Shown piece by piece: positions 5,272 through 40,075 of a stretch of 52,938 nt of DNA (positions are counted from its first letter, which is position 1; each line of letters begins with the position of its first letter). The translations under genes were made by a program, and so were the position numbers. The notes beneath the pieces were generated by a model. The model saw nothing but the letters and a program-made list of their open reading frames with translations. It searched no databases and was not told where the DNA came from. This DNA comes from an uncultured Candidatus Saccharibacteria bacterium (GTDB lineage Bacteria; Patescibacteriota; Minisyncoccia; JACQLN01), in NCBI GenBank assembly GCA_964526375.1, contig CAZGLK010000002.1, positions 1 to 52,938 of the forward strand, given 5' to 3'.

Positions 5272-7272
5272 ATGACCACTAGATTATTCGAGCCACGAAA
5301 GGCAGTGTTGCTGTTGGTCCTAACAGCCTTGTTTTTGCTCGTCCCGCTAAAACCGGCTTGGGCGGTTTTTGATTGCATCACGGATCCGATTGATTGCTTC
5401 ACCGATATTGTTTTGGTGGTTATAAACCTGGTGGTTGATTTTGTTGGTCTGGTTTTAATCGGCATTGCGGCCTCCGTAGTTAATTTTGTTTTTAATTTTC
5501 AGGGCTTTATTAAGGTGCCGGCGGTGCAGATCGGCTGGACTATGACTCGGGATGTTGCGAATATGGCTTTTATTTTAATAATGCTGGCCATGGCTTTTGG
5601 CACTATTTTGCGATATGAAAGCTATGGCTGGAAAAAGCTTCTGCCAAGATTGGTTATTATGGCGCTTCTTTTAAACTTTAGCCTGCTTATTGCCGGTGCG
5701 GTTATTGATGTCGGAAACAGCTTGGCCAGGTTTTTTATTACCGGCGGAGGAGACAATGATGTGGGAGACTTAATAATGACCTCCATTAGGGCCGGCTCCA
5801 TTGCCCAGTTGCGAAATAATGTCAGCGCTGGCAGCACAGGCACCGCCGTCGGCTCCGCCCTTAACTCCTTAATTATGGCATCTGTAATCCAGCTTATTTT
5901 TTATGTGGTTATTGCTTTTTTGCTTTTTGCTTTAGGTTTTATGATGATCTATCGCATTGTTCACTTATGGGTTCAGATTATTATGGCCCCCTTAGCCTGG
6001 GTGGGCTGGGCAATTCCTTTTGCCAGCGGATCAGCCAAAAAATGGTGGACCAGTTTCTTGCAATGGGCGTTTTTTCCGGCTTATGTTGGCTTTTTTATTT
6101 TTTTAGGAGCCTTGGTCGGCTCTACTTTAGGAGCCACGGATTTTAACCTCTTTGCCAAAGATGTAGGTGGTTTTTGGGACTGGCTTATTCCCACCACGCT
6201 TTTTTCCACCATAATGCAATTTATTGTGGTAATTACCATTCTCTTTATGGGCCTGAACAAAGCCAATAGCTGGGGCATAAGCGGCGCCAAAATGATGGTG
6301 GCCGCGGCCGAAAAAGGGCAAAAGTGGGCCAAGGACCAAGCTAAAACTTATGGCAAACGAGCTGCCGGGCGTCTGGCGGAAAAAGCTTTATACAAAAAAG
6401 GTGAGGGTGGCAAGAGAACCGATTTAAGAGAAGGCTTGCAAAGATTAGCTGGCACCGGCTACGGCGTTGGCAGGGTTGTTGGCCAAGCTCTGCGTTTGCC
6501 CACGGCTTTGATTGAACAACGCCAAAAACTAGTCAAGGGGGCCGAAGACAAGCTAAAGGGCAACTCCACGGCCACATTAAAGACAATATTTGCCGGCTTG
6601 GATGACATGGCAAAAGCCGCAATTTTGCGAGTTCTGGCCGACCGAGGCGATCTGGAATTTGTCAGCGAGGAAACCCTTATTGACAGAAAATTTAAGAAGG
6701 CGGGGTCAGACAAGAAATTCAAAGACCTTTCTGACACAGAAAAAGAGGCCGAACGGGCCCAGCTTACCGAGGAAGAAAAGAGAGAGATCGGCAAAATCAA
6801 TGAGGACAAAATGGGCGGAATAACCCAAGCCCGCTTTGAAGCGGCTCTAAAATTTAACGGCACGGCGGGGCTGGATAAAGAAATACTGAACGCCGCCCCG
6901 CAGTTTGCCGAAATCGTCGGCAAGAAAATAAAGGATGTTATTGAAAAAATATCTCCTGCCAATGCCGCTAAGATACAAGCTGGTTCCTTACAATTGCCGG
7001 AAGTCCAACAGGCTATTAAGGAAGCCCTAATGAATAATAAGTGGGACGGGAGTCAATTAAGCAGTATCGGCCAGAAAAATCCCAAGGCCTTAACCGATCT
7101 TATGGAATTTTTGGACAAGATGAGCGATGAAGAAAAGAGCAAGATGGCTAAGAGAACCCAAAATTACATGAAGGCTGGCGGCTATATTACCTTTACGCCT
7201 ACGCCGGAACCTACGGCAGAACCTACGCCGGCACCAACACCTGCACCAGCTCCAGCTCGCGGCGAGATATAA
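5272..7272 (+). CDS. VirB6/TrbL-like polytopic membrane protein with a long charged, Pro-rich tail
   Basis: The 666-aa ORF has at least 6 hydrophobic helices in its first 330 aa. A K/E-rich tail ends in TPTPEPTAEPTPAPTPAPAPA. It sits upstream of PrgI and VirB4. Confidence 0.7.
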   Translation: MTTRLFEPRKAVLLLVLTALFLLVPLKPAWAVFDCITDPIDCFTDIVLVVINLVVDFVGLVLIGIAASVVNFVFNFQGFIKVPAVQIGWTMTRDVANMAFILIMLAMAFGTILRYESYGWKKLLPRLVIMALLLNFSLLIAGAVIDVGNSLARFFITGGGDNDVGDLIMTSIRAGSIAQLRNNVSAGSTGTAVGSALNSLIMASVIQLIFYVVIAFLLFALGFMMIYRIVHLWVQIIMAPLAWVGWAIPFASGSAKKWWTSFLQWAFFPAYVGFFIFLGALVGSTLGATDFNLFAKDVGGFWDWLIPTTLFSTIMQFIVVITILFMGLNKANSWGISGAKMMVAAAEKGQKWAKDQAKTYGKRAAGRLAEKALYKKGEGGKRTDLREGLQRLAGTGYGVGRVVGQALRLPTALIEQRQKLVKGAEDKLKGNSTATLKTIFAGLDDMAKAAILRVLADRGDLEFVSEETLIDRKFKKAGSDKKFKDLSDTEKEAERAQLTEEEKREIGKINEDKMGGITQARFEAALKFNGTAGLDKEILNAAPQFAEIVGKKIKDVIEKISPANAAKIQAGSLQLPEVQQAIKEALMNNKWDGSQLSSIGQKNPKALTDLMEFLDKMSDEEKSKMAKRTQNYMKAGGYITFTPTPEPTAEPTPAPTPAPAPARGEI

Positions 7273-26808: not shown

Positions 26809-26841
26809 AAAACCGCCCCGAGCTTGTCGAGGGGCGGTTTT
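26809..26841. terminator. Hairpin at the left edge of the island, overlapping the fic stop
   Basis: The hairpin is AAAACCGCCCC-GAGCTTGTCGA-GGGGCGGTTTT. It is preceded by GGGGGTCACC and GTTCTTTC, and a near-identical hairpin lies at 34369-34403. Confidence 0.7.
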
Positions 26842-27943
26842 ATATCTTACGGTATCTTGTGGTTCGGCCAAGTCCGAGCCGCTCCACTTTTTTCAAGCGG
26901 AGGAGTTTGTCCAGCGCTTGATTAATGGTTCGACGAGCAACGCCCGTGGCTTTGGAAATCTCTCCGGGTGTGGCCGCGTCGGTTTTTTGTAGATAATTCC
27001 ACACGGCCAATTGTTTTGGCGACAAGAGTTTTTCTATGTTCTCCTTCGAGAGAAGGTCGACCGCCAGTTGCGCCTGTTTCAATAACACGCCGAAAAAGAA
27101 ATCCAACCAGGGCGCAATATCTTCGTGCCCCGATTTAAATGTCTTTTGACTTCTTCGTAAGGCCACATAGTAATCGGGCTTATTATCTTCAACCAACTTC
27201 TCGTGGGGTACATAAGGCACATACAGATATCCCTCTTTGAGTAAAAGAAGATTGGTGAGAACGCGGGACAGCCGGCCGTTGCCATCTTGGAATGGATGAA
27301 TGTTGAGAAATTCAACCAGGAAGTTCCCTATAACAAGGAGAGGGTGATATTTTTTCTCCGAGAGAGCTTCCTGGGTCCATTCCACCAGCTCCTGCATCTC
27401 TTTAGGAACAAGGTATGCCGGCGTGGTGTCAAAAAGAACGCCGACTGATTCTCCAAGCTCGTTAATCATCTGCACCCGGTTCTCTTGCTTCTTGTATTCG
27501 CCGCGGTGGATTTGGTCTTTCTCTACATATTTAAGAAGCTCGCCATGGAAATGTTTTATTGAGCTTTCCGAAAAGCTTAAACTTTTCCCCGCCGCCGCTA
27601 AAGCTTTGGCGGGCGGGCATGAATCAAACACATTCTCCAGAAGCTCGTAGTACCCCCGCACTTCCTGCTTATCGCGATCAGTGAACTTCTGTATGGCAAT
27701 GCCGCGCATCATTTTTTCAATATCTTCATCGGAAAGTTTGGCCCCCTCAATGCGGGTGGACGCCCCCGTAGAGGTAACCAAAGTTGACCGCTTGAGGCGG
27801 CCTAAAACTTGAGGGCTAAGCTGGGCTCCAGCGATCCACTGCCCCTTAAGCTCATCTATTTGTTTGAACTTTGACCAGACCTCGGAGGATAGCCCTTCGA
27901 GCCGTAGGTCAAAACGAGGTTTTTGAGTAACCGGCTCGTCCAT
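26840..27943 (-). CDS. fic: Fic/DOC family protein with a C-terminal winged-helix domain
   Basis: The 367-aa ORF has the Fic motif HPFQDGNGRLSR. Its C-terminus AVWNYLQK...TPGEISKATGVARRTINQALDKL is wHTH-like. Confidence 0.9.
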   Translation of the reverse strand: MDEPVTQKPRFDLRLEGLSSEVWSKFKQIDELKGQWIAGAQLSPQVLGRLKRSTLVTSTGASTRIEGAKLSDEDIEKMMRGIAIQKFTDRDKQEVRGYYELLENVFDSCPPAKALAAAGKSLSFSESSIKHFHGELLKYVEKDQIHRGEYKKQENRVQMINELGESVGVLFDTTPAYLVPKEMQELVEWTQEALSEKKYHPLLVIGNFLVEFLNIHPFQDGNGRLSRVLTNLLLLKEGYLYVPYVPHEKLVEDNKPDYYVALRRSQKTFKSGHEDIAPWLDFFFGVLLKQAQLAVDLLSKENIEKLLSPKQLAVWNYLQKTDAATPGEISKATGVARRTINQALDKLLRLKKVERLGLGRTTRYRKI

Positions 27944-28069: not shown

Positions 28070-28098
28070 TTGACAAGCATACCATGATTTGCTATAAT
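28070..28098 (+). promoter_or_regulatory. Consensus sigma70-type promoter P1
   Basis: TTGACA lies at 28070-28075 and TATAAT at 28093-28098, with a spacer of exactly 17 nt. Confidence 0.7.
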
Positions 28099-28218
28099 GG
28101 AACCATACGATAGAAATGCTGGTTGGGGCTGTTTAGCAGGGGTGCCTGCACCGAGCTAGTCGAGATGCCGGACCCAAACCCCGAAAGCTGGCATAGTAAT
28201 CCTTCACAGGGCAGGGTC

Positions 28219-28247
28219 TTGACAAACAGATATGCTTGGTATATAAT
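28219..28247 (+). promoter_or_regulatory. Consensus sigma70-type promoter P2
   Basis: TTGACA lies at 28219-28224 and TATAAT at 28242-28247, with a 17-nt spacer. Confidence 0.7.
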
Positions 28248-28253
28248 GGAGGT

Positions 28254-28426
28254 GTAAGCTGAAAGTACCTAATAAAACATAATAAAGTCTAAGCTTCTAG
28301 AGGAGAGAGTCTGGGGCTGGGATATTAAGGTATATTAAGGTGCAGGTTATATATAGCCCCAAACAACAACCCAAAAAGCGGTTGAAAGATTCTTTCCTTT
28401 AAGAAGGCGTCTTTCAACCGCTTTTT
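28254..28426 (+). ncRNA. Candidate sRNA of about 170 nt, bounded by P2 and an intrinsic terminator
   Basis: There is no credible ORF. An internal hairpin GGGGCT...AGCCCC is present. The terminator stem is AGCGGTTGAAAG (28377-28388) with CTTTCAACCGCT (28411-28422), followed by TTTT. Confidence 0.5.
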
Positions 28427-28697: not shown

Positions 28698-29129
28698 ATG
28701 AAGGCCACAAGTTTCTTGTTTCTCGCGGCGCTCTTCGTCAGTGCAATAGGCTGCACCGACACCCGGCCTTTTTACAGGTCGGTTCTGCAGGATAAAGAAG
28801 TCGTTGTGAAGCTCACTGAGGCAATTTGGCTGCATGGCGATACTACGTGCGCCATCACCAAGCTGGCCCGTCAGCTGGATGCCGAAAGACGAGCAGACGT
28901 CCGGAGGCCGTATTCGCCCGTAAACGCGGATCGTATGCTTTGGGAGGAAATCCATAAGGTTGTCATAGACAATTGGTATTCTTCCACGGATACCATGCGT
29001 GCAGAAGTACGGCGGACCTTGGACCTTTGGCTTTCTCCCGAGAAATCAAGTAAGGCCGAGGTGTGGGTGATGCCTGTAACGGTCCATTACCGCTTTGACC
29101 CCGATCAGGTTTATCTGACAAAGAAGTAA
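28698..29129 (+). CDS. Hypothetical lipoprotein
   Basis: The 143-aa ORF has a signal peptide with the lipobox FVSAIGC. A GGGGAAAAATT ribosome-binding region precedes the ATG. Confidence 0.7.
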   Translation: MKATSFLFLAALFVSAIGCTDTRPFYRSVLQDKEVVVKLTEAIWLHGDTTCAITKLARQLDAERRADVRRPYSPVNADRMLWEEIHKVVIDNWYSSTDTMRAEVRRTLDLWLSPEKSSKAEVWVMPVTVHYRFDPDQVYLTKK

Positions 29130-29172
29130 AGGATTGGGAGGCTCTGCGAACAAAAAAATTCGCATTCCTCCC

Positions 29173-29235
29173 TCTGTCTCCCGATGTATGTCGGGACTGA
29201 TGAGCCCTTTGATAGTTACCGCAGGGCGAAACAGA
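29173..29235 (+). ncRNA. Type III hammerhead self-cleaving ribozyme
   Basis: Stem III pairs TCTGT (29173-29177) with ACAGA (29231-29235). The cleavage triplet is GUC, with C17 at 29178. Stem I is TCCCGA-TGTATG-TCGGGA (29179-29196). The core CTGATGA lies at 29197-29203. Stem II is GCCCT-14 nt-AGGGC (29204-29227), and GAAA lies at 29228-29231. Confidence 0.85.
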
Positions 29236-29279
29236 AAATTGCTTGCACCGAGCTAGCCGATATTCTTTGAAAATCAATA

Positions 29280-29537
29280 TTAGCGGTAAATGTCTTTGCG
29301 GTGGTCAATGTCAAAAAAGATCGCTGTTTCTGCGTGCTGCAAATAAAAAAGCACCCGGAAATTGCGAGTGACCCTGAAAGAAAGAGCATGAGGGAGGATT
29401 TTAACTTTTTTGATGTGCAGCCGCGGGTCGCACCAGTTCTTTTGAAACGAACTCTTTTGAGTAAAATAGAGCCGCTGAATTTCCTTAGGCAGTTTGTTTA
29501 GTGACCTTTCAAAATCATCGGTCTGGATTATCTCCAT
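29280..29537 (-). CDS. RelE/ParE-superfamily toxin
   Basis: The 85-aa basic ORF overlaps the upstream small ORF by 10 nt. Its C-terminus FRVLFYLQHAETAIFFDIDHRKDIY resembles the RelE/YafQ type. Confidence 0.7.
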   Translation of the reverse strand: MEIIQTDDFERSLNKLPKEIQRLYFTQKSSFQKNWCDPRLHIKKVKILPHALSFRVTRNFRVLFYLQHAETAIFFDIDHRKDIYR

Positions 29538-29737
29538 ACGGAAGACACCGGCGGATATTTCTTTATGGCTTTTTCATAGGATCGTTTGATCCGTTGCGGG
29601 TGAGCATAGCCGACCAGATCTTCTTGAGGGAAAAGAAATTCAACCTCGCTTCTTAGCAGGCGGAGTTCCTCAATGACCGTTCCCAAGAGCTCGTTAGTGG
29701 CCGCAGCAGAGGTCTTATCTTTTGTGAGTATTTCCAT
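29528..29737 (-). CDS. Cognate antitoxin (family not recognised)
   Basis: The 69-aa ORF lies immediately upstream of the toxin and overlaps it. Confidence 0.55.
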   Translation of the reverse strand: MEILTKDKTSAAATNELLGTVIEELRLLRSEVEFLFPQEDLVGYAHPQRIKRSYEKAIKKYPPVSSVWR

Positions 29738-29782
29738 TAACCATGATTATAGTTTATCACCAAAGGTATGTCAATTTTCTTT

Positions 29783-29861
29783 CTAACCCACCCCTCAACA
29801 ACACGCGGATACACGCGGATCAAAACGCGGATACACGCGGATAGATTGAAGGGTGAGTTAG
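29783..29861. repeat. Hairpin element with an ACGCGGAT word loop (unit A head)
   Basis: CTAACCCACCCCTCAA (29783-29798) pairs with TTGAAGGGTGAGTTAG (29846-29861). The loop holds four ACGCGGAT words. Confidence 0.75.
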
Positions 29862-29939
29862 GGAGAGAAGGACTCTTCCGAAGGCGACGCGTGCCTATAA
29901 AGTGCGAGCCATGTAAACACCTGAAAGGAGGTGAAAAGC

Positions 29940-30197
29940 ATGGCAAGTAAGGATCTTTGGGTGGAGATTAAACTCCACCCGGAGGCCGAGCCGGTTTGGG
30001 CTCGGAGAGAGGTCCCGCCCGCAGTTGTCCAGGAGTTCCAAAGGATCCTGGATACTGGGGGTGGTGAGCACATCTCCTTTCCCTATCCCGACGATTCTGA
30101 AAGAATCGTTTCGGAGGTGGGGGGGCGAGATGTGGTTCTCTCTGTGCCCTCTCGGGCACGGGGAGGGAACTACGTGATCCATTTTTTGGGTCACTGA
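29940..30197 (+). CDS. Small acidic hypothetical protein (unit A payload, 85 aa)
   Basis: The ATG lies 9 nt after AAAGGAGGTGA, a near-perfect SD. The leader is conserved with unit B. I recognise no family. Confidence 0.6.
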   Translation: MASKDLWVEIKLHPEAEPVWARREVPPAVVQEFQRILDTGGGEHISFPYPDDSERIVSEVGGRDVVLSVPSRARGGNYVIHFLGH

Positions 30198-30234
30198 TTC
30201 CCGTTCCCGAAACCCGCCCCCACCGCGGTAATGT

Positions 30235-30466
30235 GGGGAGATGGCGCAGGTTGACGCCATACTGAAGCGGTCTTGATTGACGCGATACTAACCCGTGCCT
30301 GATGGCAGGCAGCCCGTGGAAACACGACGGGTATACGGGGAATAAGTGTCAGTAGAGACCGCCAGTCCAGACGAACAGCAGGACAACACTCCTTGCTGTT
30401 CAGGATTCAACCACAGGGCCGCCAAAGAGCTCGGCCCTAATCCCGAAGCACTCGGGAAAGCTCAAG
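30235..30466 (+). repeat. 232-nt structured element, copy 1 (candidate unclassified ncRNA)
   Basis: By eye it is identical to 31722-31953. It contains a 3-way junction (ACCCGT/ACGGGT closing GCCTG-ATGG-CAGGC and CGTG-GAAA-CACG). Further hairpins are GAACAGCA../..TGCTGTTC, GGGCCG/CGGCCC and CCCGA/TCGGG. Confidence 0.7.
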
Positions 30467-30641
30467 ATTTTGGGAGAGTTGCCAGAGATGACAGCTCTCC
30501 CCCTTATCCGAGTTCATCGTCTCTTTCCGCGTAAATCAGCGTTCTAATCTGCGTTGATCCGCGTAAAGTAAGGGTGGATTCAGAGGAGGGAAAAACATTC
30601 TCATATTCTGCAGAATGTTAGAATGTTGGTTCTTTGAGAAA

Positions 30642-30869
30642 TTAAGCAGGAGTTAGAACAACTTCAACGGGAAGAGGAACGGCCGTATGTTTCGCCTTCA
30701 TTCGGTGGGCAAAATTAAGCACCGTAAAACCCTTAACCTTGCGAGTTTTGGGGTCAAGGCGAAGAATCACATCGTTGGCGGCCTCTTCGCTGCGATCTTT
30801 TGCGGATGGCTTGCCTTGAGAGATGTAGAGTATGTCGGCCTCTTGGTCGTAGTAATAATAGAGTTGCAT
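30642..30869 (-). CDS. DUF2283-type small protein (antitoxin-like)
   Basis: The 75-aa ORF contains YYYDQEADILYISQG ... VKGFTVLNF, typical of DUF2283. Confidence 0.7.
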   Translation of the reverse strand: MQLYYYYDQEADILYISQGKPSAKDRSEEAANDVILRLDPKTRKVKGFTVLNFAHRMKAKHTAVPLPVEVVLTPA

Positions 30870-30873
30870 AATT

Positions 30874-31146
30874 TTAATGTTTGATTTTAGAGGTTAAGTA
30901 TATGGTAAGTATAAAGTTGCGTTGATTGGTTTTCACTACTACCACAAGATGTTTCCTCTGGCTGATTGGACTATAGCATATTTGCACCCTTGGATCAAAT
31001 TTCGATTGGCTAATAATACTGGGTTTGGCAAGTACTTGCTTAATCCGTTTCAGATAGCGTCTAACTTCTGGGTGGAATTTAAGAACATGCTCAACCCTTT
31101 CGTTAGTCAGCTCAACTTCTCCAAACGGCGAATCAAACTTCTTCAT
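30874..31146 (-). CDS. Putative toxin partner of DUF2283 (DUF4258 / RelE-barnase-like)
   Basis: The ATG at 31146 (MKKFDSPFGEV) gives a 90-aa protein. It contains ERVEHVLKFHPEV and LVVVVKTNQRNFILTIY, and lies 4 nt upstream of the DUF2283 gene. Confidence 0.55.
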   Translation of the reverse strand: MKKFDSPFGEVELTNERVEHVLKFHPEVRRYLKRIKQVLAKPSIISQSKFDPRVQICYSPISQRKHLVVVVKTNQRNFILTIYLTSKIKH

Positions 31147-31190
31147 TTTGATATTATACCTCAACGCTAATCCGTAGCCAATTTTCTTCT

Positions 31191-31292
31191 CTAACCCACC
31201 CCTCAACAATACGCGGATTAACCCCTCGACTTCGCTCAGGGCAAGCGCGGACTAAACGCGGATCTACGCGGATAGATTGAAGGGTGAGTTAG
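31191..31292. repeat. Hairpin element with an ACGCGGAT word loop (unit B head)
   Basis: The arms are the same as at 29783-29861 (CTAACCCACCCCTCAA / TTGAAGGGTGAGTTAG), but the loop is longer. Confidence 0.75.
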
Positions 31293-31377
31293 GGAGAGAA
31301 ATGCTCTTCCTATCAAAGGCGACGCGTGCCTATATAAAGTGCGAGCCATGTAAAACACCTGAAAGGAGGTGAAAGAT

Positions 31378-31686
31378 ATGGCAAAGGCATTTTCTTTCGT
31401 CCTTTACACCCAAGCCGGCGGGTACGACGGCTATGTGGTGGTTCAGGATGAGAGGACGGCAGACGCCACAGACGATTTGATTCGATCTGTGGTGGATCCC
31501 GAAGGGGAAATTTCTTTCGTCGGGGGAGTCCATCTGACTCCTTTTGGCGAGGGAGAACCCCAATCCCTCTGGCAGACAATCTGTCAGGAAGAAGAGGGGT
31601 TCCTTTTCGGAGGTGATTTGGCCGCAATGCTCGCCCGGACGCCAGCAGAGAAGCTGGTGAACCGGGTGGAGTACTACGGTCATTAA
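31378..31686 (+). CDS. Small highly acidic hypothetical protein (unit B payload, 102 aa)
   Basis: The ATG follows the same AAAGGAGGTGA leader. The protein is unrelated to the unit A payload, and both end in GH. Confidence 0.6.
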   Translation: MAKAFSFVLYTQAGGYDGYVVVQDERTADATDDLIRSVVDPEGEISFVGGVHLTPFGEGEPQSLWQTICQEEEGFLFGGDLAAMLARTPAEKLVNRVEYYGH

Positions 31687-31721
31687 GCCGCCCCGCCCTA
31701 ACCCTCCCCCTAGGGTCACAA

Positions 31722-31953
31722 GGGGAGATGGCGCAGGTTGACGCCATACTGAAGCGGTCTTGATTGACGCGATACTAACCCGTGCCTGATGGCAGGCAGC
31801 CCGTGGAAACACGACGGGTATACGGGGAATAAGTGTCAGTAGAGACCGCCAGTCCAGACGAACAGCAGGACAACACTCCTTGCTGTTCAGGATTCAACCA
31901 CAGGGCCGCCAAAGAGCTCGGCCCTAATCCCGAAGCACTCGGGAAAGCTCAAG
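31722..31953 (+). repeat. 232-nt structured element, copy 2
   Basis: By eye it is identical to 30235-30466. Confidence 0.7.
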
Positions 31954-32094
31954 TTTTGGGGAGAGGGTCTCAAAAAAGAGAATCTCTCCCCACCTTATCC
32001 GAGTTCATCATCCGCGTTTATCCGTTTGCCAATCTGCGTATATCCGCGATGTGTATGGTGGATTCAGAGGAGGGAGGTGTTCTTTGAAAAAAAA

Positions 32095-32307
32095 TTACAA
32101 ATCTTCTTCTGAAACGCCAGCTTGTTTTAGGATTGAATGAAGCGTGCCCTTGGGCAGGTCTTTGGTGTGGTAGGGTACGGATGCTCGTTTCTTCTTTTGC
32201 GGGTGATAAAAAATATAATGGCTTCCAGTAGCATAGTCTAACTGAAAGCCAAGACGTTTGAGAATAACAATAACCTTTTTGGGTGTAAGAGACGGGATCT
32301 TAGGCAT
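32095..32307 (-). CDS. hicA: HicA toxin
   Basis: The 70-aa ORF contains KKVIVILKRLGFQLDYATGSHYIF and LPKGTLHSILKQAG. Confidence 0.88.
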   Translation of the reverse strand: MPKIPSLTPKKVIVILKRLGFQLDYATGSHYIFYHPQKKKRASVPYHTKDLPKGTLHSILKQAGVSEEDL

Positions 32308-32557
32308 GGGCGGAAGCCTTTTCGCGGACAGGTTCCTTTATCTGAATAGAAGCAATGAATGTTTCTTCGTCTGAAGGAATTAGTTCACGATGTTTTCTAA
32401 GGCTCGCGATATATCCTTCGACGGCATCCCGCGCCATATTTTTGGCTTCGGTAAGGTTTTTCCCGTAACTAACGCAACCTGGCAAGGCCGGAACAAAAAC
32501 CGTAAACCCGCCCTCCGGTTCCGGACGAAGAATGATATTGTAATTGAGTATTTTCAT
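32300..32557 (-). CDS. hicB: HicB antitoxin
   Basis: The ATG at 32557 gives MKILNYNIILRPEPEGGFTVFVPALPGCVSYG. The gene overlaps hicA by 8 nt, and the longer track ORF (to 32869) is a spurious extension. Confidence 0.85.
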   Translation of the reverse strand: MKILNYNIILRPEPEGGFTVFVPALPGCVSYGKNLTEAKNMARDAVEGYIASLRKHRELIPSDEETFIASIQIKEPVREKASAHA

Positions 32558-32762
32558 ACACCAATATGGTATCAAACAAAATCCAATGTTGCAAATTTTT
32601 CCCCTAACCCACCCCTCAACAACGCGCGCCTGCCTGCGGCAGGCAGGGATATACGCGGTGTGATCTCTCACAAGATAGTTTAGTAAGTTGTTTTGTGAGA
32701 GGTCGCACGGTGCGGCTTCTGTAAAGACTTGGGGCCAATCCCAAGCAGGAAAGGAGGGTGCT

Positions 32763-33350
32763 ATGAAAATAGTGCTCTGCGGGCCGCCAAGGTCCGGCAA
32801 GTCCTGCTTGAGGGAAGGCCTCAAGCAGGCGGTGCGGCGTATTCCTGGAGCGCCGTATCCGTATGTCATAACCGGGTGCCCTGACGGGGAGGGCGCCTGG
32901 TTCCAGGAGACTGTGAACTTGGATCCCGAATTGGCGGCGCGGTGTAAGGCCGCCTATAAATCCAAGTTCACAACGGAATTCGTGCGGAGGGTCGCGGATT
33001 CCGTAAAAAGTTGTAACCTTCCTTTGACGCTCGTGGACATTGGTGGCATCCCGAGCGCTGAGAACGAGGAGATTTGCTCCTCGGCCACCCACGCCATTTT
33101 GCTGGCGGGCGATCTTGATCGTCTGCCCGAGTGGCGCGAGTTCTGCGGGAAGCTGGGTCTCCGCATCATCGCGGAGATCCATAGCGATTACCGTGGAACT
33201 GAAGACACCGCTCCTTCGCTCGGCGAGGATGGTGTCTGGAGTGGATCGGTTCATTACCTCGAAAGAGGCGAGCCGGTCCACGAGCGCCCGACAGTCAAGG
33301 CGCTCGCCGAGACCCTCGCGCAGATGGCTACTGCAGCAGAGGAGAACTAA
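32763..33350 (+). CDS. P-loop NTPase (possible Csx3-associated ATPase module)
   Basis: The ATG at 32763 follows GGAAAGGAGGG. Walker A is GPPRSGKS, and LTLVDIGG is Walker B/DxxG-like. The protein is 195 aa. Confidence 0.6.
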   Translation: MKIVLCGPPRSGKSCLREGLKQAVRRIPGAPYPYVITGCPDGEGAWFQETVNLDPELAARCKAAYKSKFTTEFVRRVADSVKSCNLPLTLVDIGGIPSAENEEICSSATHAILLAGDLDRLPEWREFCGKLGLRIIAEIHSDYRGTEDTAPSLGEDGVWSGSVHYLERGEPVHERPTVKALAETLAQMATAAEEN

Positions 33351-33486: not shown

Positions 33487-33795
33487 ATGGCGGCGTATAA
33501 AATTTTTTTGGAGGGCGGAGACGTCCTCCGGGTCGGGTTCGGCGACCCGGCCCAGAACGACGCGATCTGCCGGGACGCCGCCCGGCAGCTGGAGGAGCTT
33601 GTCTCCTCCGGAGCCCTGGCCGGTGGCTCAGTTATTAAAATAAACGGCCCCGCCTCCTTGCCCGTGGCGGTGGTGTTCGCTCACGCGATTGGCCACCTCT
33701 ACGAGGCGGTGGCGGTGTTCGACCCCAAGCTGGGGAAGTATGTCGTGGCGGTTAGCCACGGTGTCCAGCTCGGGGTCGGCGACCTGATCGACTAG
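33487..33795 (+). CDS. csx3: Csx3/Crn3-like protein (putative cyclic oligoadenylate ring nuclease)
   Basis: The ATG follows GAAAGGAGGAG and the protein is 102 aa. IKINGPASLPVAVVFAHAIGHLYEAVAVFDPKLGKYVVAVSHG...GDLI matches, from memory, the Csx3 pattern GRGPIWL..H..H..VAVYDPRLG..VVVQSH..GDVI. Confidence 0.55.
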   Translation: MAAYKIFLEGGDVLRVGFGDPAQNDAICRDAARQLEELVSSGALAGGSVIKINGPASLPVAVVFAHAIGHLYEAVAVFDPKLGKYVVAVSHGVQLGVGDLID

Positions 33796-33860
33796 CCATC
33801 GGTCAGGAAAAAACTCCCGAGTGGCGCTCGGGGCATTCACCTGAAAGGAGGTGAAAAAAC

Positions 33861-33995
33861 ATGGAGGAGTTCGGCCGCTTTGTCGCGGCCATCCCGCCAC
33901 GGGACGTTTTGGCCCTGTTGGTGGGGTGGGCGGGCCTGCTCCTTTGCGTCGCTGACGCAGTGGAGCGGCTCCTTAACGAGAAATTTCCTCGTTAA
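33861..33995 (+). CDS. Possible 44-aa hydrophobic peptide (third payload behind the shared SD)
   Basis: CACCTGAAAGGAGGTGAAAA lies at 33839-33858 and the ATG at 33861. My translation gives MEEFGRFVAAIPPRDVLALLVGWAGLLLCVADAVERLLNEKFPR. Confidence 0.4.
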   Translation: MEEFGRFVAAIPPRDVLALLVGWAGLLLCVADAVERLLNEKFPR

Positions 33996-34368
33996 AAGGT
34001 CCCCGCCCTCGTCAAATCCCCGGTCACGGAGCCGGGGTTGCCCGAAAGTCCACGGGCGTAAAAGTATGGGTAAAAGGCCAGGGGGTTGCCTGACGCGCAC
34101 TCGTCAAAAACCCTCTCTGTTCTCCGCCCAAGGCGGACTGACGAGCTCCCACTTTCGCCAAGAAGCTTCAGCGGGCAGGCAAAAGAGTGGAAACAGACCG
34201 CCGTGGTGGGCGGACGAGAATTGGGGAAATCTTTTATGCCCCCCTGATTCGCAAAAACACCAGTCCTTATAAAGCTGTGAGCTGGAAAAATCTCTCTCCT
34301 TGGTTTTGTTGAAGGTTCTTTGAGAATTTTTAACGAAACAATCCAGTTCGCAGCTTTATGGGGGCTAC

Positions 34369-39320: not shown

Positions 39321-39521
39321 TCTTGTCCAACATTCGGTGTCCGACATCGGGTGTTGGACATCGGACATTGTGGTGTGCAAAACCCCTGCTTGTTGGATTG
39401 GCTGGGGTTTTGTACACTTATAACATATCATAGCAGGTCTCCTTAATGTTCTTTCGAAGGAGGTGATTTATCAAAGAAACAAAATCATCTTCATAATGAA
39501 GTTCTGTCTTGGCAGCAAGCC

Positions 39522-39567
39522 AGCCGCTCTTGCCCCCAGTTCTCCCCGGCAAGAGCGGCTTTTTTTA
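39522..39567 (+). terminator. Strong intrinsic terminator
   Basis: A 13-bp stem pairs AGCCGCTCTTGCC with GGCAAGAGCGGCT, followed by TTTTTTT. Confidence 0.75.
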
Positions 39568-39598
39568 TTCGTTTCTGTCTGCTACGATTCATTTAATT

Positions 39599-40075
39599 AT
39601 GCGGCTGGTTTTGAAAAATCTTAAAGATACCCAAAAACTGGCCAAAAGACTGGCCAAAGAGTGGCTGTGTCAAACCGGTCCCTTGACCATCGCCCTGTAC
39701 GGCGGTTTGGGCGCGGGCAAGACAACCTTTGTTCAATTTTTTGCCAGAGCGGTGGGGGCAAAGGATAAAGTGTTGAGCCCGACTTTTTTAATTATCAAGG
39801 CTCTCTGTCTTGATGCGCGGATTGACGCGGATCAAAGACGGATATACGCGGATATACTTAAGTATAAAAGATTGATCCATATTGATTGTTATCGTCTAAA
39901 GTCGGCCAAAGAGCTTGTTGCCTTGGGGCTCAAAGACATTTTAAGAGATAAAGAAAACATTGTGGTTATAGAATGGCCGGAGAAGATCGCCCGATATTTA
40001 CCGGGGAGCACGAAGAAGGTTTGGTTTGAAGTGGTGGGAGAGAAAGAAAGAAAAATCATTATTAAAAATATCTAA
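39599..40075 (+). CDS. tsaE: tRNA t6A biosynthesis protein TsaE, carrying a repeat-derived insertion
   Basis: The ATG at 39599 gives an ORF with P-loop GGLGAGKTTF, SPTF and HIDCYRL. About 15 extra aa between SPTF and HIDCYRL are encoded by GCGCGGAT/ACGCGGAT words. Confidence 0.85.
   Translation: MRLVLKNLKDTQKLAKRLAKEWLCQTGPLTIALYGGLGAGKTTFVQFFARAVGAKDKVLSPTFLIIKALCLDARIDADQRRIYADILKYKRLIHIDCYRLKSAKELVALGLKDILRDKENIVVIEWPEKIARYLPGSTKKVWFEVVGEKERKIIIKNI

What the first reader, a model, noticed from the sequence alone, without database searches (positions are those of the whole stretch)
30218..30518. Identical 232-nt highly structured element repeated behind two unrelated small ORFs (twin at 31704-32009)
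30235-30466 and 31722-31953 are identical by eye, although the ORFs in front of them share no similarity. The block folds on paper into a 3-way junction containing a GAAA tetraloop hairpin. It also forms an 8+2-bp hairpin (GAACAGCAGG/CCTTGCTGTTC) and two short GC hairpins. A possible pseudoknot pairs GAGCT in the GGGCCG loop with AGCTC near the 3' end. Upstream of each copy, different sequence (CCCCAC in A, CTCCCC in B) can pair with the G-run that opens the block. Downstream, both copies have a GGGAGAG/CTCTCCC hairpin whose loops are unrelated (15 vs 18 nt). A shared CCTTATCCGAGTTCATC follows. Conserved stems with divergent loops and flanks argue for selection on structure, either as RNA or as folded ssDNA. 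I cannot match it to hammerhead, twister, pistol, hairpin, SRP, 6S, tmRNA or RNase P from memory. Candidate roles are a novel processing ribozyme, a 3'-UTR stabiliser or regulator, a guide-like RNA of a mobile element, or a recombination site.
Basis: seen in the sequence. Interest (0 to 1): 0.85.

Follow-up and report, generated by a model that had tools for sequence, protein, structure and literature searches.

The report
Structured RNA tail of twin cassettes
The identical 232-base block is real and is most likely the folded, non-coding tail of two neighbouring gene cassettes in a fast-changing cassette array of an uncultured groundwater bacterium; its larger half is an orphan RNA-like fold in the same slot where the next cassette carries a hammerhead ribozyme.

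Summary
30235-30466 and 31722-31953 are identical at 232 of 232 bases, behind unrelated ORFs. The block folds far better than shuffles (z -7.6 and -6.7) and has no open frame.

It is not a free-standing element. It is the 3' tail of two plus-strand cassettes in a roughly 6.5-kb array between a two-promoter leader and ruvB, in a Patescibacteria chromosome. The other cassettes hold three toxin-antitoxin pairs, SoFic and a split Csx3-AAA. Hairpin 'arms' and a one-way GTTCTTTGARAA motif mark the junctions.

Two related genomes (RuvB 93-94% identical) have the same leader, arms and junctions but different cassettes. Their plus-strand cassettes share only the block's last ~50 nt (hairpins H1 and H2) and the terminal GGGAGAG hairpin. 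The first 181 nt, a three-way-junction domain, has no relative anywhere I could search. It matches no Rfam family.

In the neighbouring cassette, a canonical type III hammerhead occupies the same slot.

My best reading is a transcribed cis-acting 3'-UTR RNA for end formation or processing (confidence about 0.45). Rivals are a folded-ssDNA recombination site, a trans-acting RNA, and neutral duplication. Covariation for the main domain cannot be tested here.

The parts
30235..30466 (+). 232-nt block, copy A. It comprises the 5' domain (30235-30415), H1 (30416-30437), H2 (30441-30457) and a linker AAGCTCAAG.
   Evidence: Exact repeat. Fold z -7.6 with flanks. No Rfam hit. No open frame.
31722..31953 (+). 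232-nt block, copy B, identical to copy A.
30235..30415 (+). Orphan 5' domain. It has hairpin Pa, a long helix capped by a three-way junction with a GAAA-region hairpin, and the hairpin GAACAGCAGG/CCUUGCUGUUC. The twin is at 31722-31902.
   Evidence: RNA fold of the + strand is -79.1 kcal/mol (z -6.1); the - strand is -67.5 (z -3.6). nhmmer and blastn on L087-L090 find no match to this part of the block.
30416..30457 (+). Hairpins H1 (GGGCCG/CGGCCC) and H2 (UCCCGA/UCGGGA, loop AGCAC). These are shared with plus-strand cassette tails in the related genome. The twin is at 31903-31944.
   Evidence: Homologous hairpins at L088 4112-4066 and 5835-5781 on the minus strand, with a conserved AGCAY loop and changed stem pairs.
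30472..30518 (+). Terminal hairpin GGGAGAG-16 nt-CTCTCCC followed by the conserved CCTTATCCGAGTTCATC. In copy B these lie at 31958-32009, with an 18-nt loop.
   Evidence: The same hairpin occurs in L088 tails with an inner-stem C-G to A-U change.
30198..30234 (+). C-rich spacer after the ORF A stop codon (S*: GAAACCCGCCCCCACC). It forms a hairpin with the block's first Gs. Copy B has its spacer at 31687-31721.
   Evidence: L088 has GAACCCGCCCCCCCAC at the same place.
29940..30197 (+). ORF A (85 aa). It is an orphan with coding-like composition.
31378..31686 (+). ORF B (102 aa). It is an orphan and unrelated to ORF A.
29776..29939 (+). Left arm 1 and the conserved 5' UTR. The parts are S box TAACCCACCCCTCAA (29784-29798), four ACGCGGAT iterons (29803-29842), S' box (29846-29860), GGGAGAG hairpin (29861-29879) and an RBS-sequestering hairpin CACCTGAAAGGAGGTG (29918-29933). 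The unit 2 equivalent is 31184-31377.
30519..30640 (+). Right arm: a degenerate inverted copy of the left arm. It has inverted iterons (30524-30565), the S2 box GGTGGATTCAGAGGAGGGA (ending 30592), a palindromic terminator (30594-30627) and the junction motif GTTCTTTGAGAA (30629-30640). The unit 2 equivalent is 32010-32090.
29171..29237 (+). Type III hammerhead ribozyme in the 3' tail of the preceding plus-strand cassette (ORF 28698-29129). This is the same slot that the block occupies.
   Evidence: RF00008 at 37.6 bits, E 1.4e-4 for the whole window. The core CUGAUGAG...CGAAAC and the GUC cleavage site are complete.
28070..28247 (+). Array leader with two perfect sigma-70 promoters (28070-28098 and 28219-28247) that point into the array.
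   Evidence: The leader is conserved in L088 at 7770-7610.
29280..29737 (-). Minus-strand toxin-antitoxin cassette 1 (ParE-like) with its own promoter.
30642..31146 (-). Minus-strand toxin-antitoxin cassette 2 (DUF4258/DUF2283), lying between the two block-bearing cassettes.
32095..32569 (-). Minus-strand HicAB cassette.
34315..34326 (+). Last junction motif, GTTCTTTGAGAA, at the conserved end of the array next to ruvB.
   Evidence: The same end is present in L089 and L090.

Best explanation
The 232-nt block is the non-coding, transcribed 3' tail of two sister plus-strand gene cassettes. The cassettes sit in a hypervariable, integron-like array next to ruvB in a Patescibacteria (Parcubacteria/Minisyncoccia-type) chromosome.

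**How it is transcribed.** Each plus-strand cassette has a shared 5' UTR with an RBS-sequestering hairpin, a freely exchangeable small ORF, and a structured tail. I infer that the cassettes are read from the two strong leader promoters or from weak internal ones. No terminator lies between ORF and block, so the block would be made as part of the ORF's mRNA.

**The two parts of the tail.**
- A family-wide 3' module: hairpins H1 and H2, then the terminal GGGAGAG hairpin. This module is also found behind unrelated ORFs in related genomes.
- A cassette-specific insert: the 181-nt three-way-junction domain.

**Proposed function.** I propose the tail works in cis at the RNA level. It would define or protect the 3' end of the cassette mRNA, and separate it from read-through that would run antisense into the convergent toxin-antitoxin operon.

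**The hammerhead analogy.** The 181-nt domain occupies the slot where the neighbouring cassette has a hammerhead placed just after a stem-loop that follows the stop codon. It may therefore be a processing element, possibly self-cleaving.

**Why the two copies are identical.** Perfect identity, against 33-93% in the flanking bins, is best explained by recent duplication or gene conversion between the two cassettes. Extreme constraint is not needed.

**Shown:** the repeat, the fold statistics, the cassette anatomy, conservation of the 3' module in relatives, and the hammerhead next door.

**Inferred:** transcription, cis function, and any catalysis.
For: **Repeat and fold.**
- Exact 232-nt repeat behind unrelated, coding-like ORFs.
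- Strong fold on the ORF strand (z -7.6 and -6.7).
- The 5' domain is 11.6 kcal/mol more stable on the + strand than on the - strand.
- No frame is open across the block.
- No terminator-like site was called between either ORF's stop codon and its block. The one + strand call nearby (31519-31538) lies inside ORF B.

**Shared cassette scaffold.**
- The RBS motif GAAAGGAGGTGAAAA(GC)ATGG and the post-stop C-rich spacer recur in a third, unrelated cassette in L088.

**The 3' module is conserved in relatives.**
- Four tails (W1, W2, L088a, L088b) carry H1, H2 and the terminal hairpin. H2 keeps the loop AGCAY.
- Stem changes preserve pairing. In H2, A-U becomes C-G and G-C becomes G.U in L088b, and the fourth pair flips from G-C to C-G in L088a. 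In the inner stem of the terminal hairpin, C-G becomes A-U.

**Hammerhead in the same slot.**
- A complete type III hammerhead lies on the same strand, 42 nt after the stop codon of the preceding plus-strand ORF, just behind a stem-loop.

**Array context.**
- The leader promoters point into the array.
- The array's content differs completely between genomes whose RuvB is 93-94% identical, while the leader, arms, junction motif and array end are conserved.
Against: - There is no transcript evidence.
- There is no homologue of the 181-nt domain, so it has no covariation support. Identity of the two copies can be explained by gene conversion alone.
- With DNA parameters, the whole tail folds equally well on both strands. 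The 3' module also folds equally on both strands as RNA. A DNA-level role is therefore not excluded.
- G.U counts do not favour the + strand.
- The terminal hairpin lacks a U-tract, so it is not a canonical terminator.
- The comparative set is only four tails from two lineages.
- The hammerhead scores below Rfam's gathering cut-off (37.6 against 48.5 bits).
Confidence: 0.45

Rival explanations
1. **A DNA-level element.** The block would be the large variable interior of a giant attC-like recombination site that folds as single-stranded DNA. The base of the structure would be the post-stop S* box (..RAAC-CC..) pairing with the right-arm and junction sequence (GGAGGG..GTTCTTTG). A site-specific recombinase encoded elsewhere would excise and insert the plus-strand cassettes there.
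For: - The array behaves like a sedentary integron or CALIN. It has a conserved leader with outward promoters, hypervariable cassettes, abundant toxin-antitoxin cassettes with their own promoters, and a unidirectional junction motif that starts with GTT.
- The short arms are AAC...GTT-bounded imperfect palindromes. They are 81% paired in register, against 27-54% when the register is slid.
- In copy B, AAC+CCCTCC after the stop codon is complementary to GGAGGG(AGGT)GTT at the junction. In L088, AGAACCC is complementary to GGGTTCT (read).
- The homology breakpoint around the shared ParE-like cassette falls exactly at |TTCTTTGAAAA.
- With DNA parameters, both strands of 30198-30600 fold well (z -4.3 and -4.6).
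- There is a published precedent. The DUF1874 motif is a multistem motif found in consecutive intergenic regions and was proposed as an unusual attC (PMC5737381).
Against: - The site would be about 385-420 nt, far beyond the 57-141 nt of attC sites.
- The 181-nt domain is absent from the equivalent sites in L088, so it is not needed for a shared recombination mechanism.
- The domain folds better on the ORF (top) strand, whereas integron attC sites act through the bottom strand (established knowledge).
- No extrahelical bases or unpaired central spacer appear in the short arms.
- No integrase or other recombinase is present in the 53-kb window or next to the array in L088 or L089.
- A hammerhead, which is an RNA device, occupies the same slot.
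Confidence: 0.2
2. **A trans-acting non-coding RNA gene carried as cassette cargo.** Examples would be an RNA partner or antitoxin for the small ORF product, a decoy or sensor in phage defence, or a guide-like RNA for a protein encoded elsewhere.
For: - The size and fold significance are typical of functional RNAs.
- The island is a defence and toxin-antitoxin island, with SoFic, a split Csx3-AAA and three toxin-antitoxin pairs.
- The same RNA is kept with two different ORFs, so it could act independently of them.
Against: - No conserved promoter lies in front of the block. The two upstream spacers differ and no promoter-like site was called there.
- The ORF partners are unrelated, which argues against a specific protein-RNA pair.
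- No nuclease, RT or recombinase is adjacent.
- The variable segments and the block itself have no complementarity in the window above chance.
- No Rfam family matches, including HEARO/OMEGA, retron-type and other known RNAs.
Confidence: 0.15
3. **No specific function.** The block would be a recently duplicated or gene-converted stretch of cassette backbone, and its predicted structure would be incidental to G+C-rich foreign DNA.
For: - Identity is perfect with sharp edges inside an otherwise diverged scaffold, as expected for a conversion tract.
- No homologue of the 181-nt domain was found in four exact-match DNA scans with block-derived patterns or in the protein-word search.
- The plus-strand cassettes are G+C-richer (55-57%) than the genome (47%).
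Against: - The z-scores of -6 to -7.6 are measured against dinucleotide-preserving shuffles.
- The 3' third is demonstrably conserved in structure in other cassettes.
- The region has stops in all six frames yet is retained intact in both cassettes.
Confidence: 0.12
4. **The end or interior of a non-autonomous transposable element.** This would be a MITE or mobile insertion cassette whose transposase is encoded elsewhere. The roughly 100-bp arms with four phased ACGCGGAT iterons would be the transposase-binding inverted ends.
For: - Each ORF-plus-block module is flanked by long inverted arms with phased 8-bp iterons.
- An iteron-array fragment also lies inside the tsaE coding sequence.
Against: - No target-site duplication is present (read).
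- The arms also flank the toxin-antitoxin cassettes and stand alone at the array end in L089, with the iterons inverted. They are therefore array junctions, not ends of this module.
- Arms and S boxes occur only inside the array in 53 kb.
- No transposase is present in the window.
- The module has no match in the plasmid or phage collections.
- The block itself lies inside the module, not at an end.
Confidence: 0.05

Closest known systems
attC sites and species-specific repeats (for example VCRs) of sedentary chromosomal integrons and CALINs
   Same: - A near-identical structured repeat follows unrelated small ORFs in a hypervariable array.
- Toxin-antitoxin cassettes with their own promoters are interspersed.
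- Promoters at one end read into the array.
- Junctions are one-directional, start with GTT, and are paired with AAC-containing inverted partners.
- Cassette content differs between close relatives.
   Different: - The block is 232 nt, inside a 385-420-nt inter-cassette region, against 57-141 nt for attC sites.
- It is a branched fold, not a single bulged hairpin.
- It folds better on the top strand.
- The short arms carry phased iterons and lack extrahelical bases.
- The 5' UTRs are also conserved between cassettes.
- No integron integrase was found.
- The host is a CPR bacterium.
DUF1874 motif (Weinberg et al. 2017, PMC5737381)
   Same: It is a multistem motif that recurs in consecutive intergenic regions in a motif-ORF-motif-ORF pattern. 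It has no adjacent integrase. Its authors could not decide between an RNA and an unusual ssDNA attC.
   Different: Neither this nor any other Rfam family matches the block at E up to 10. The block sits 3' of the ORFs rather than in a putative 5' UTR. Only two identical copies are known.
Hammerhead and other small self-cleaving ribozymes in bacterial operons and mobile DNA
   Same: - The block lies on the same strand and in the same position as a bona fide type III hammerhead in the adjacent cassette: just after a post-stop stem-loop and before a convergent toxin-antitoxin operon.
- From my own knowledge, not checked here: Weinberg et al. 2015 used the tendency of different self-cleaving ribozyme classes to occur near one another as a discovery heuristic.
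   Different: - No hammerhead, twister, twister-sister, pistol, hatchet, HDV-like or hairpin core is detectable in the block.
- The CUGAUGG and GAAAC strings lie inside hairpins of a tight junction, not in a hammerhead core.
- 181-232 nt is large for a self-cleaver.
- Cleavage is untested.
pdif (XerC/D) module arrays of Acinetobacter plasmids
   Same: Discrete modules, many of them toxin-antitoxin pairs, are bounded by short recombination sites whose orientation alternates. As a result every module is flanked by inverted sites. The comparison rests on my own knowledge of that system and on the anatomy seen.
   Different: The arms here are 85-125 bp palindromes with iterons and show no resemblance to the 28-bp dif architecture. 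The locus is chromosomal. No Xer involvement has been shown.

Membership tests
Any Rfam 15 RNA family (including hammerhead, twister, pistol, hatchet, HDV-like, HEARO, 6S, SRP, tmRNA, RNase P, group I/II introns, DUF1874) | A covariance-model match at or near the family's gathering score | tested here: not met
   There were 0 hits at gathering score in the whole window. At E up to 10 over 29700-32700, the only matches overlapping either copy are two minus-strand HOTTIP_3 lncRNA alignments (20.4 and 7.8 bits, gathering score 50; the model has no base pairs), which I treat as chance.
Hammerhead ribozyme (for the block itself) | Three helices around the core CUGANGA...GAAA, with a cleavable NUH site | tested here: not met
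   No RF00008, RF00163 or RF02275-type hit falls in the block. The junction strands of the predicted three-way junction are 0, 1 and 3 nt. By contrast, the neighbouring cassette at 29171-29237 has the full core.
Integron attC site | R'' (RYYYAAC) and R' (GTTRRRY) boxes forming the base of one imperfect hairpin | tested here: inconclusive
   The short arms have TCTAAC...GTTAGGG (6 of 7 in each box) and form a 16-bp stem. For the block-containing region, only AAC...GTT with short adjacent complementarity can be drawn by eye. IntegronFinder's attC model was not available.
Integron attC site | Length of 57-141 nt, with extrahelical bases and an unpaired central spacer on the bottom strand | tested here: not met
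   The region from S* to the junction is about 385-420 nt. The short arms fold as continuous stems without extrahelical bases. The block's 5' domain favours the top strand.
Integron (complete) | An IntI tyrosine recombinase and attI adjacent to the array | tested here: not met
   Pfam scans of the window's ORFs of about 180 aa or more (a few shorter array ORFs were also scanned) and of the ORFs flanking the arrays in L088 and L089 find no recombinase. The one exception is an IS30-like transposase inserted in the L088 leader. About 7.8 kb of the contig lies outside the window and was not seen.
Integron-like cassette array (CALIN-type behaviour) | Same-orientation junction sites, and cassette content that varies between close relatives while the flanks are conserved | tested here: met
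   GTTCTTTGARAA occurs 4 times in the window array and 3 to 5 times in L088, all in one orientation. The leader and array end are conserved while the cassettes differ in L088 and L089.
IS / MITE / mobile insertion cassette | Terminal inverted repeats with a target-site duplication, dispersed copies, and a cognate transposase | tested here: not met
   Inverted arms exist. However, there is no target-site duplication, no copies outside the array except an iteron fragment in tsaE, and no transposase in the window.
Transposon-, CRISPR- or recombinase-associated guide RNAs (TnpB/IscB omegaRNA, IS110 bridge RNA, tracrRNA) | An adjacent effector gene and a variable guide segment matching a target or donor | tested here: not met
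   There is no such gene within the window. The variable spacers and loops have only chance-level 10-11-mers elsewhere.
Retron ncRNA | An adjacent reverse transcriptase and flanking a1/a2 repeats | tested here: not met
   No RT domain appears in any scanned ORF.
Type III toxin-antitoxin RNA antitoxin | A tandem array of short repeats upstream of an endoribonuclease toxin gene | tested here: not met
   The block is a single 232-nt unit downstream of the ORF. No short tandem-repeat family was reported within it, and neither ORF matches a toxin family.

The most novel reading that the evidence does not exclude
The 181-nt three-way-junction domain (30235-30415 and 31722-31902) would be a new class of self-cleaving or otherwise self-processing RNA. 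It would do the same job as the hammerhead in the neighbouring cassette: cutting the cassette mRNA free just behind a protective stem-loop. It would belong to a previously undescribed integron-like defence and toxin-antitoxin cassette system of CPR bacteria, one that routinely equips its cassettes with RNA-processing tails.
Probability: 0.12. Interest if true: 0.85.

Novelty: new variant of a known kind. Interest (0 to 1): 0.58.

Why it matters
**The array.** If the reading is right, this locus shows that ultra-small CPR bacteria keep an integron-like, rapidly exchanging bank of defence and toxin-antitoxin cassettes next to ruvB. Its junction sites are unlike canonical attC sites, and the recombinase is not in view. 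The plus-strand cassettes come with built-in structured RNA tails, one of which is a hammerhead ribozyme.

**The orphan domain.** This makes the 181-nt domain a concrete and cheap candidate for a new processing RNA, testable by a single in vitro transcription assay. Ribozyme classes have been found before by looking next to known ribozymes.

**The open question of RNA versus ssDNA.** The locus also gives a tractable case for deciding whether complex multistem repeats in consecutive intergenic regions act as RNA or as folded ssDNA recombination sites. That question has been open since the DUF1874 motif was described.

Tried and rejected
**1. Known RNA families.**
- Rfam at gathering score on the whole window gave no hits.
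- Rfam at E up to 10 on the region gave nothing credible in the block.
- ARAGORN found no tRNA or tmRNA.

**2. Homologues by DNA.**
- Exact 20-32-mers from the block had 0 hits in IMG/VR, GTDB representative genomes and JGI metagenomes.
- 19-22-mers from the conserved flanks had 0 hits in IMG/VR.
- The S-box 19-mer hit only two chance sites, inside a eukaryote-like hydrolase gene.
- blastn of the module against plasmids and phages found no match.
- nhmmer on 80 ruvB loci from GTDB found nothing in relatives with RuvB identity of 82% or less.

**3. Homologues by protein.**
- ORF B has none.
- ORF A hits only a junk tandem-repeat protein.
- A translated pseudo-ORF of the block had no candidates.
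- Exact look-ups show that all of these are singletons.

**4. Third cassette tail.** The tail at 33990-34300 is not alignable as a diverged copy and has z -0.96. I rejected it.

**5. Guide-like targets.** The variable spacers and loops have only chance-level matches.

**6. ACGCGGAT iterons as DnaA boxes.** I rejected this. The dnaA upstream region has standard TTATCCACA boxes.

**7. Protein-coding block.** Rejected, because all six frames contain stops.

**8. Strand assignment by G.U counts.** No asymmetry was found.

**9. Covariation statistics on the arms.** Six sequences are too few. The pairing is in register but not significant against shuffles.

**10. A tRNA gene in the L088 array.** I suspected one by eye, but ARAGORN did not confirm it.

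**11. Not attempted.** A covariance model of the shared H2 region was judged pointless, given how little sequence is available to search. AlphaFold on the orphan ORFs was skipped because it would have had no alignment depth.
Full report
**1. Checking the observation**

The two stretches 30235-30466 and 31722-31953 are identical at all 232 positions. Identity ends abruptly on both sides (family D1).

In an alignment of the two repeat units, the 40-column bins that lie wholly inside the block are 1.00. All other bins range from 0.33 to 0.93.

The ORFs in front, A (29940-30197, 85 aa) and B (31378-31686, 102 aa), are unrelated (BLASTP E 2.6).

| Stretch folded as RNA on the ORF strand | Energy (kcal/mol) | z against dinucleotide shuffles |
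|---|---|---|
| Copy A with flanks | -135.7 | -7.6 |
| Copy B with flanks | -139.6 | -6.7 |

All six frames of the block contain stops.

- the three-way junction with the GAAA-region hairpin;
- the GAACAGCAGG/CCUUGCUGUUC hairpin;
- the two GC hairpins;
- the downstream GGGAGAG/CUCUCCC hairpin with unrelated loops.

Independent Logan unitigs from two sequencing runs end or branch at the repeat edges. They join ORF A, the block, the next toxin-antitoxin pair and ORF B in the order seen in the window. The tandem arrangement is therefore not an assembly artefact.

The upstream sequences that pair with the opening G-run are a C-run conserved in both copies. This is conservation, not compensatory change.

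**2. What surrounds the block**

The block is the perfect core of a longer repeated scaffold. Each unit contains these parts in order:
- **A left arm.** An S box (TAACCCACCCCTCAA), four helically phased ACGCGGAT iterons, an inverted S' box ending in GTTAGGGAGAG, and a small GGGAGAG hairpin.
- **A conserved 5' UTR.** Its Shine-Dalgarno sequence sits in a hairpin (CACCUGAAAGGAGGUG).
- **The variable ORF.**
- **A C-rich spacer.**
- **The block.**
- **A GGGAGAG hairpin with a variable loop.**
- **The 17-mer CCTTATCCGAGTTCATC.**
- **A degenerate inverted copy of the arm.**
- **The junction motif GTTCTTTGARAA**.

Between the units lie toxin-antitoxin pairs on the other strand, each with its own promoter:
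- a ParE-like pair;
- DUF4258/DUF2283;
- HicAB.

The whole island runs from two perfect sigma-70 promoters that point into it (28070 and 28219) to a conserved end next to ruvB. It also carries:
- SoFic (26840-27943), which lies just upstream of the two leader promoters;
- a split Csx3-AAA pair;
- a further plus-strand ORF (28698-29129).

The window is chromosomal, with dnaA, dnaN, polA, uvrB, ruvA and ruvB. It contains no recombinase, transposase or reverse transcriptase.

RuvB places the organism among Patescibacteria of the Parcubacteria/Minisyncoccia type.

**3. Related sequences**

Exact-pattern scans of IMG/VR, GTDB representative genomes and JGI metagenomes found nothing relevant. I used block-derived and flank-derived patterns. 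Plasmid and phage collections gave no match either.

The ORFs are orphans.

The useful route was RuvB. Homologues at 93-94% identity led to ENA contigs L087-L090. These carry the same locus:
- the same leader with both promoters;
- the same arms, in one case with the iterons inverted;
- the same junction motif in the same orientation;
- the same array end;
- entirely different cassettes.

More distant relatives, with RuvB identity of 82% or less, lack all of it.

This is the behaviour of a sedentary integron or CALIN-type cassette array. However, canonical attC features are missing: there are no extrahelical bases, and the sites fall outside the 57-141-nt size range. No integrase was found.

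**4. What the relatives say about the block**

L088 has two further plus-strand cassette tails. Both contain the following, in order:
- a GC hairpin (H1);
- a hairpin H2 with the conserved loop AGCAY;
- a linker;
- the GGGAGAG terminal hairpin;
- a CYUAUC motif;
- the junction.

Several stem positions change while pairing is kept:

| Helix | Tail | Change |
|---|---|---|
| H2 | L088b | A-U to C-G |
| H2 | L088b | G-C to G.U |
| H2, fourth pair | L088a | G-C to C-G |
| Terminal hairpin, inner stem | L088a | C-G to A-U |

So the last ~50 nt of the block, together with the terminal hairpin, form a conserved structured 3' module of this cassette type.

The first 181 nt are different. That stretch comprises hairpin Pa, a long helix capped by the three-way junction, and the 8+3-bp hairpin. 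In L088a it is replaced by about 95 unrelated, weakly structured nucleotides. In L088b it is replaced by almost nothing. It has no homologue anywhere I could search.

As RNA, the 181-nt domain is 11.6 kcal/mol more stable on the ORF strand than on the opposite strand (z -6.1 against -3.6). With DNA parameters, the whole tail folds equally on both strands.

**5. A ribozyme next door**

A permissive Rfam scan found a type III hammerhead at 29171-29237 on the plus strand:
- the score is 37.6 bits, with E 1.4e-4 for the whole window;
- the core is complete: C3-A9, G12-A14 and a GUC cleavage site;
- stem I has 6 bp, stem II 4 bp, and stem III 5 bp.

It lies 42 nt after the stop codon of the preceding plus-strand ORF, immediately behind a nested stem-loop, and before a convergent toxin-antitoxin operon. 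That is the same slot the block occupies in the next two cassettes.

Cleavage there would leave the mRNA ending in a protective hairpin. It would also detach the read-through that is antisense to the toxin-antitoxin operon.

**6. Most likely mechanism and its rivals**

I conclude that the block is a transcribed, cis-acting 3' tail of two sister cassettes (confidence about 0.45). It joins the family-wide 3' module to a cassette-specific 181-nt structured insert.

By position, the insert may be a processing element analogous to the hammerhead.

The perfect identity of the two copies is best explained by recent duplication or gene conversion.

| Rival explanation | Confidence | Main argument against |
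|---|---|---|
| A giant attC-like ssDNA recombination site | 0.20 | The 181-nt domain is absent from equivalent sites in relatives, and it favours the top strand |
| A trans-acting RNA | 0.15 | No conserved promoter, partner or target was found |
| Neutral duplicated backbone | 0.12 | Strong z-scores, and the 3' part is conserved |
| A MITE or IS end | 0.05 | No target-site duplication, no dispersed copies, no transposase, and the arms also bound the other cassettes |

Transcription, cis function and catalysis are all inferred. None of them is shown.

**7. Comparison with what is known, and novelty**

The locus works like a sedentary integron or CALIN with species-specific repeats. It also resembles the unresolved DUF1874 motif, a multistem motif found in consecutive intergenic regions (PMC5737381).

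It fails the membership tests for canonical attC sites, for integrons, and for every Rfam family.

I rate it as a new variant of a known kind. It is an integron-like cassette array in a CPR bacterium whose cassettes carry structured RNA tails, and one of those tails contains an orphan, strongly folded 181-nt domain.

Interest is moderate to high (0.58):
- The ribozyme-neighbour context makes the domain a cheap and concrete candidate for experiment.
- Against that, it is known from one genome only, and its fold has no comparative support.

Noticed in passing
window 29171-29237 (+): A canonical type III hammerhead ribozyme, scoring 37.6 bits against a gathering score of 48.5. It lies 42 nt after the stop codon of ORF 28698-29129 and directly behind a nested GGGAGG/CCUCCC stem-loop. 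It sits in a CPR chromosome, inside the cassette array.
   Followed up: partly
window 28070-28330; L088 7770-7610 (minus strand): The array leader has two perfect TTGACA-17-TATAAT promoters about 150 bp apart. The first transcript begins with a hairpin that covaries between genomes (AACCA/UGGUU against AGCCA/UGGCU) and has a conserved loop UACGAUAGAAA. This may be a small RNA. In L088, an IS30-like transposase is inserted just after the second promoter.
   Followed up: partly
window 39816-39862, inside tsaE (39509-40075): A copy of the ACGCGGAT iteron array lies in frame inside the tsaE coding sequence. The protein is about 20 aa longer than the Pfam TsaE model at that point.
   Followed up: no
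window 28143-28166 and 29240-29263: A 24-nt repeat, TGCYTGCACCGAGCTAGYCGAKAT (88% identical). One copy is in the leader transcript and the other immediately follows the hammerhead. Its meaning is unknown.
   Followed up: no
window 32760-33350 and 33511-33795 (+); 26840-27943 (-): Defence cargo in the island. It includes a Csx3-AAA system split into separate AAA and Csx3 genes (PADLOC E 4e-58 and 4e-23) and a SoFic-type Fic protein (E 3e-40). No CRISPR array or cas genes are present in the window.
   Followed up: partly
window 29918-29933, 31357-31372, 33838-33853; L088 ~4645-4626: The plus-strand cassettes share a translation-initiation region (the motif GAAAGGAGGTGAAAA). In all three window copies it begins CACCUGAAAGGAGGUG, so the Shine-Dalgarno sequence is paired in a 5-bp hairpin. 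This suggests regulated translation. The L088 copy begins GCCGAAAGGAGGTG and lacks that 5' arm.
   Followed up: no
window 31914-31921 with 31999-32006 (and 30427-30434 with 30508-30515): GAGCUCGG, in the loop and 3' arm of H1, can pair with CCGAGUUC in the conserved 17-mer. This encloses H2 and the terminal hairpin and excludes H1. L088b has an analogous pair, GUGAGC...GCUCAC. It may be a conformational switch.
   Followed up: partly
window 29262-29273, 30629-30640, 32079-32090, 34315-34326; L088 3959, 5370, 5639; L089 4329: The one-directional junction motif GTTCTTTGARAA lies immediately outside the 3' end of every minus-strand cassette and at the array end. Around the ParE-like cassette that both genomes share, homology between the window and L088 begins exactly at TTCTTTGAAAA.
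   Followed up: partly
window 33996-34300 (+): About 300 nt of G+C-rich non-coding sequence lies behind a 44-aa ORF that uses the same RBS motif. It cannot be aligned with the block and its fold is not significant (z -0.96).
   Followed up: yes
L088 ~5400-5500 (minus strand of locus): A stretch resembles the 3' half of a tRNA (TGGACCCGCGGAGAATCGAACTCCGG...) inside the related array. ARAGORN calls no tRNA there, so it may be a fragment or an attachment-site remnant.
   Followed up: partly
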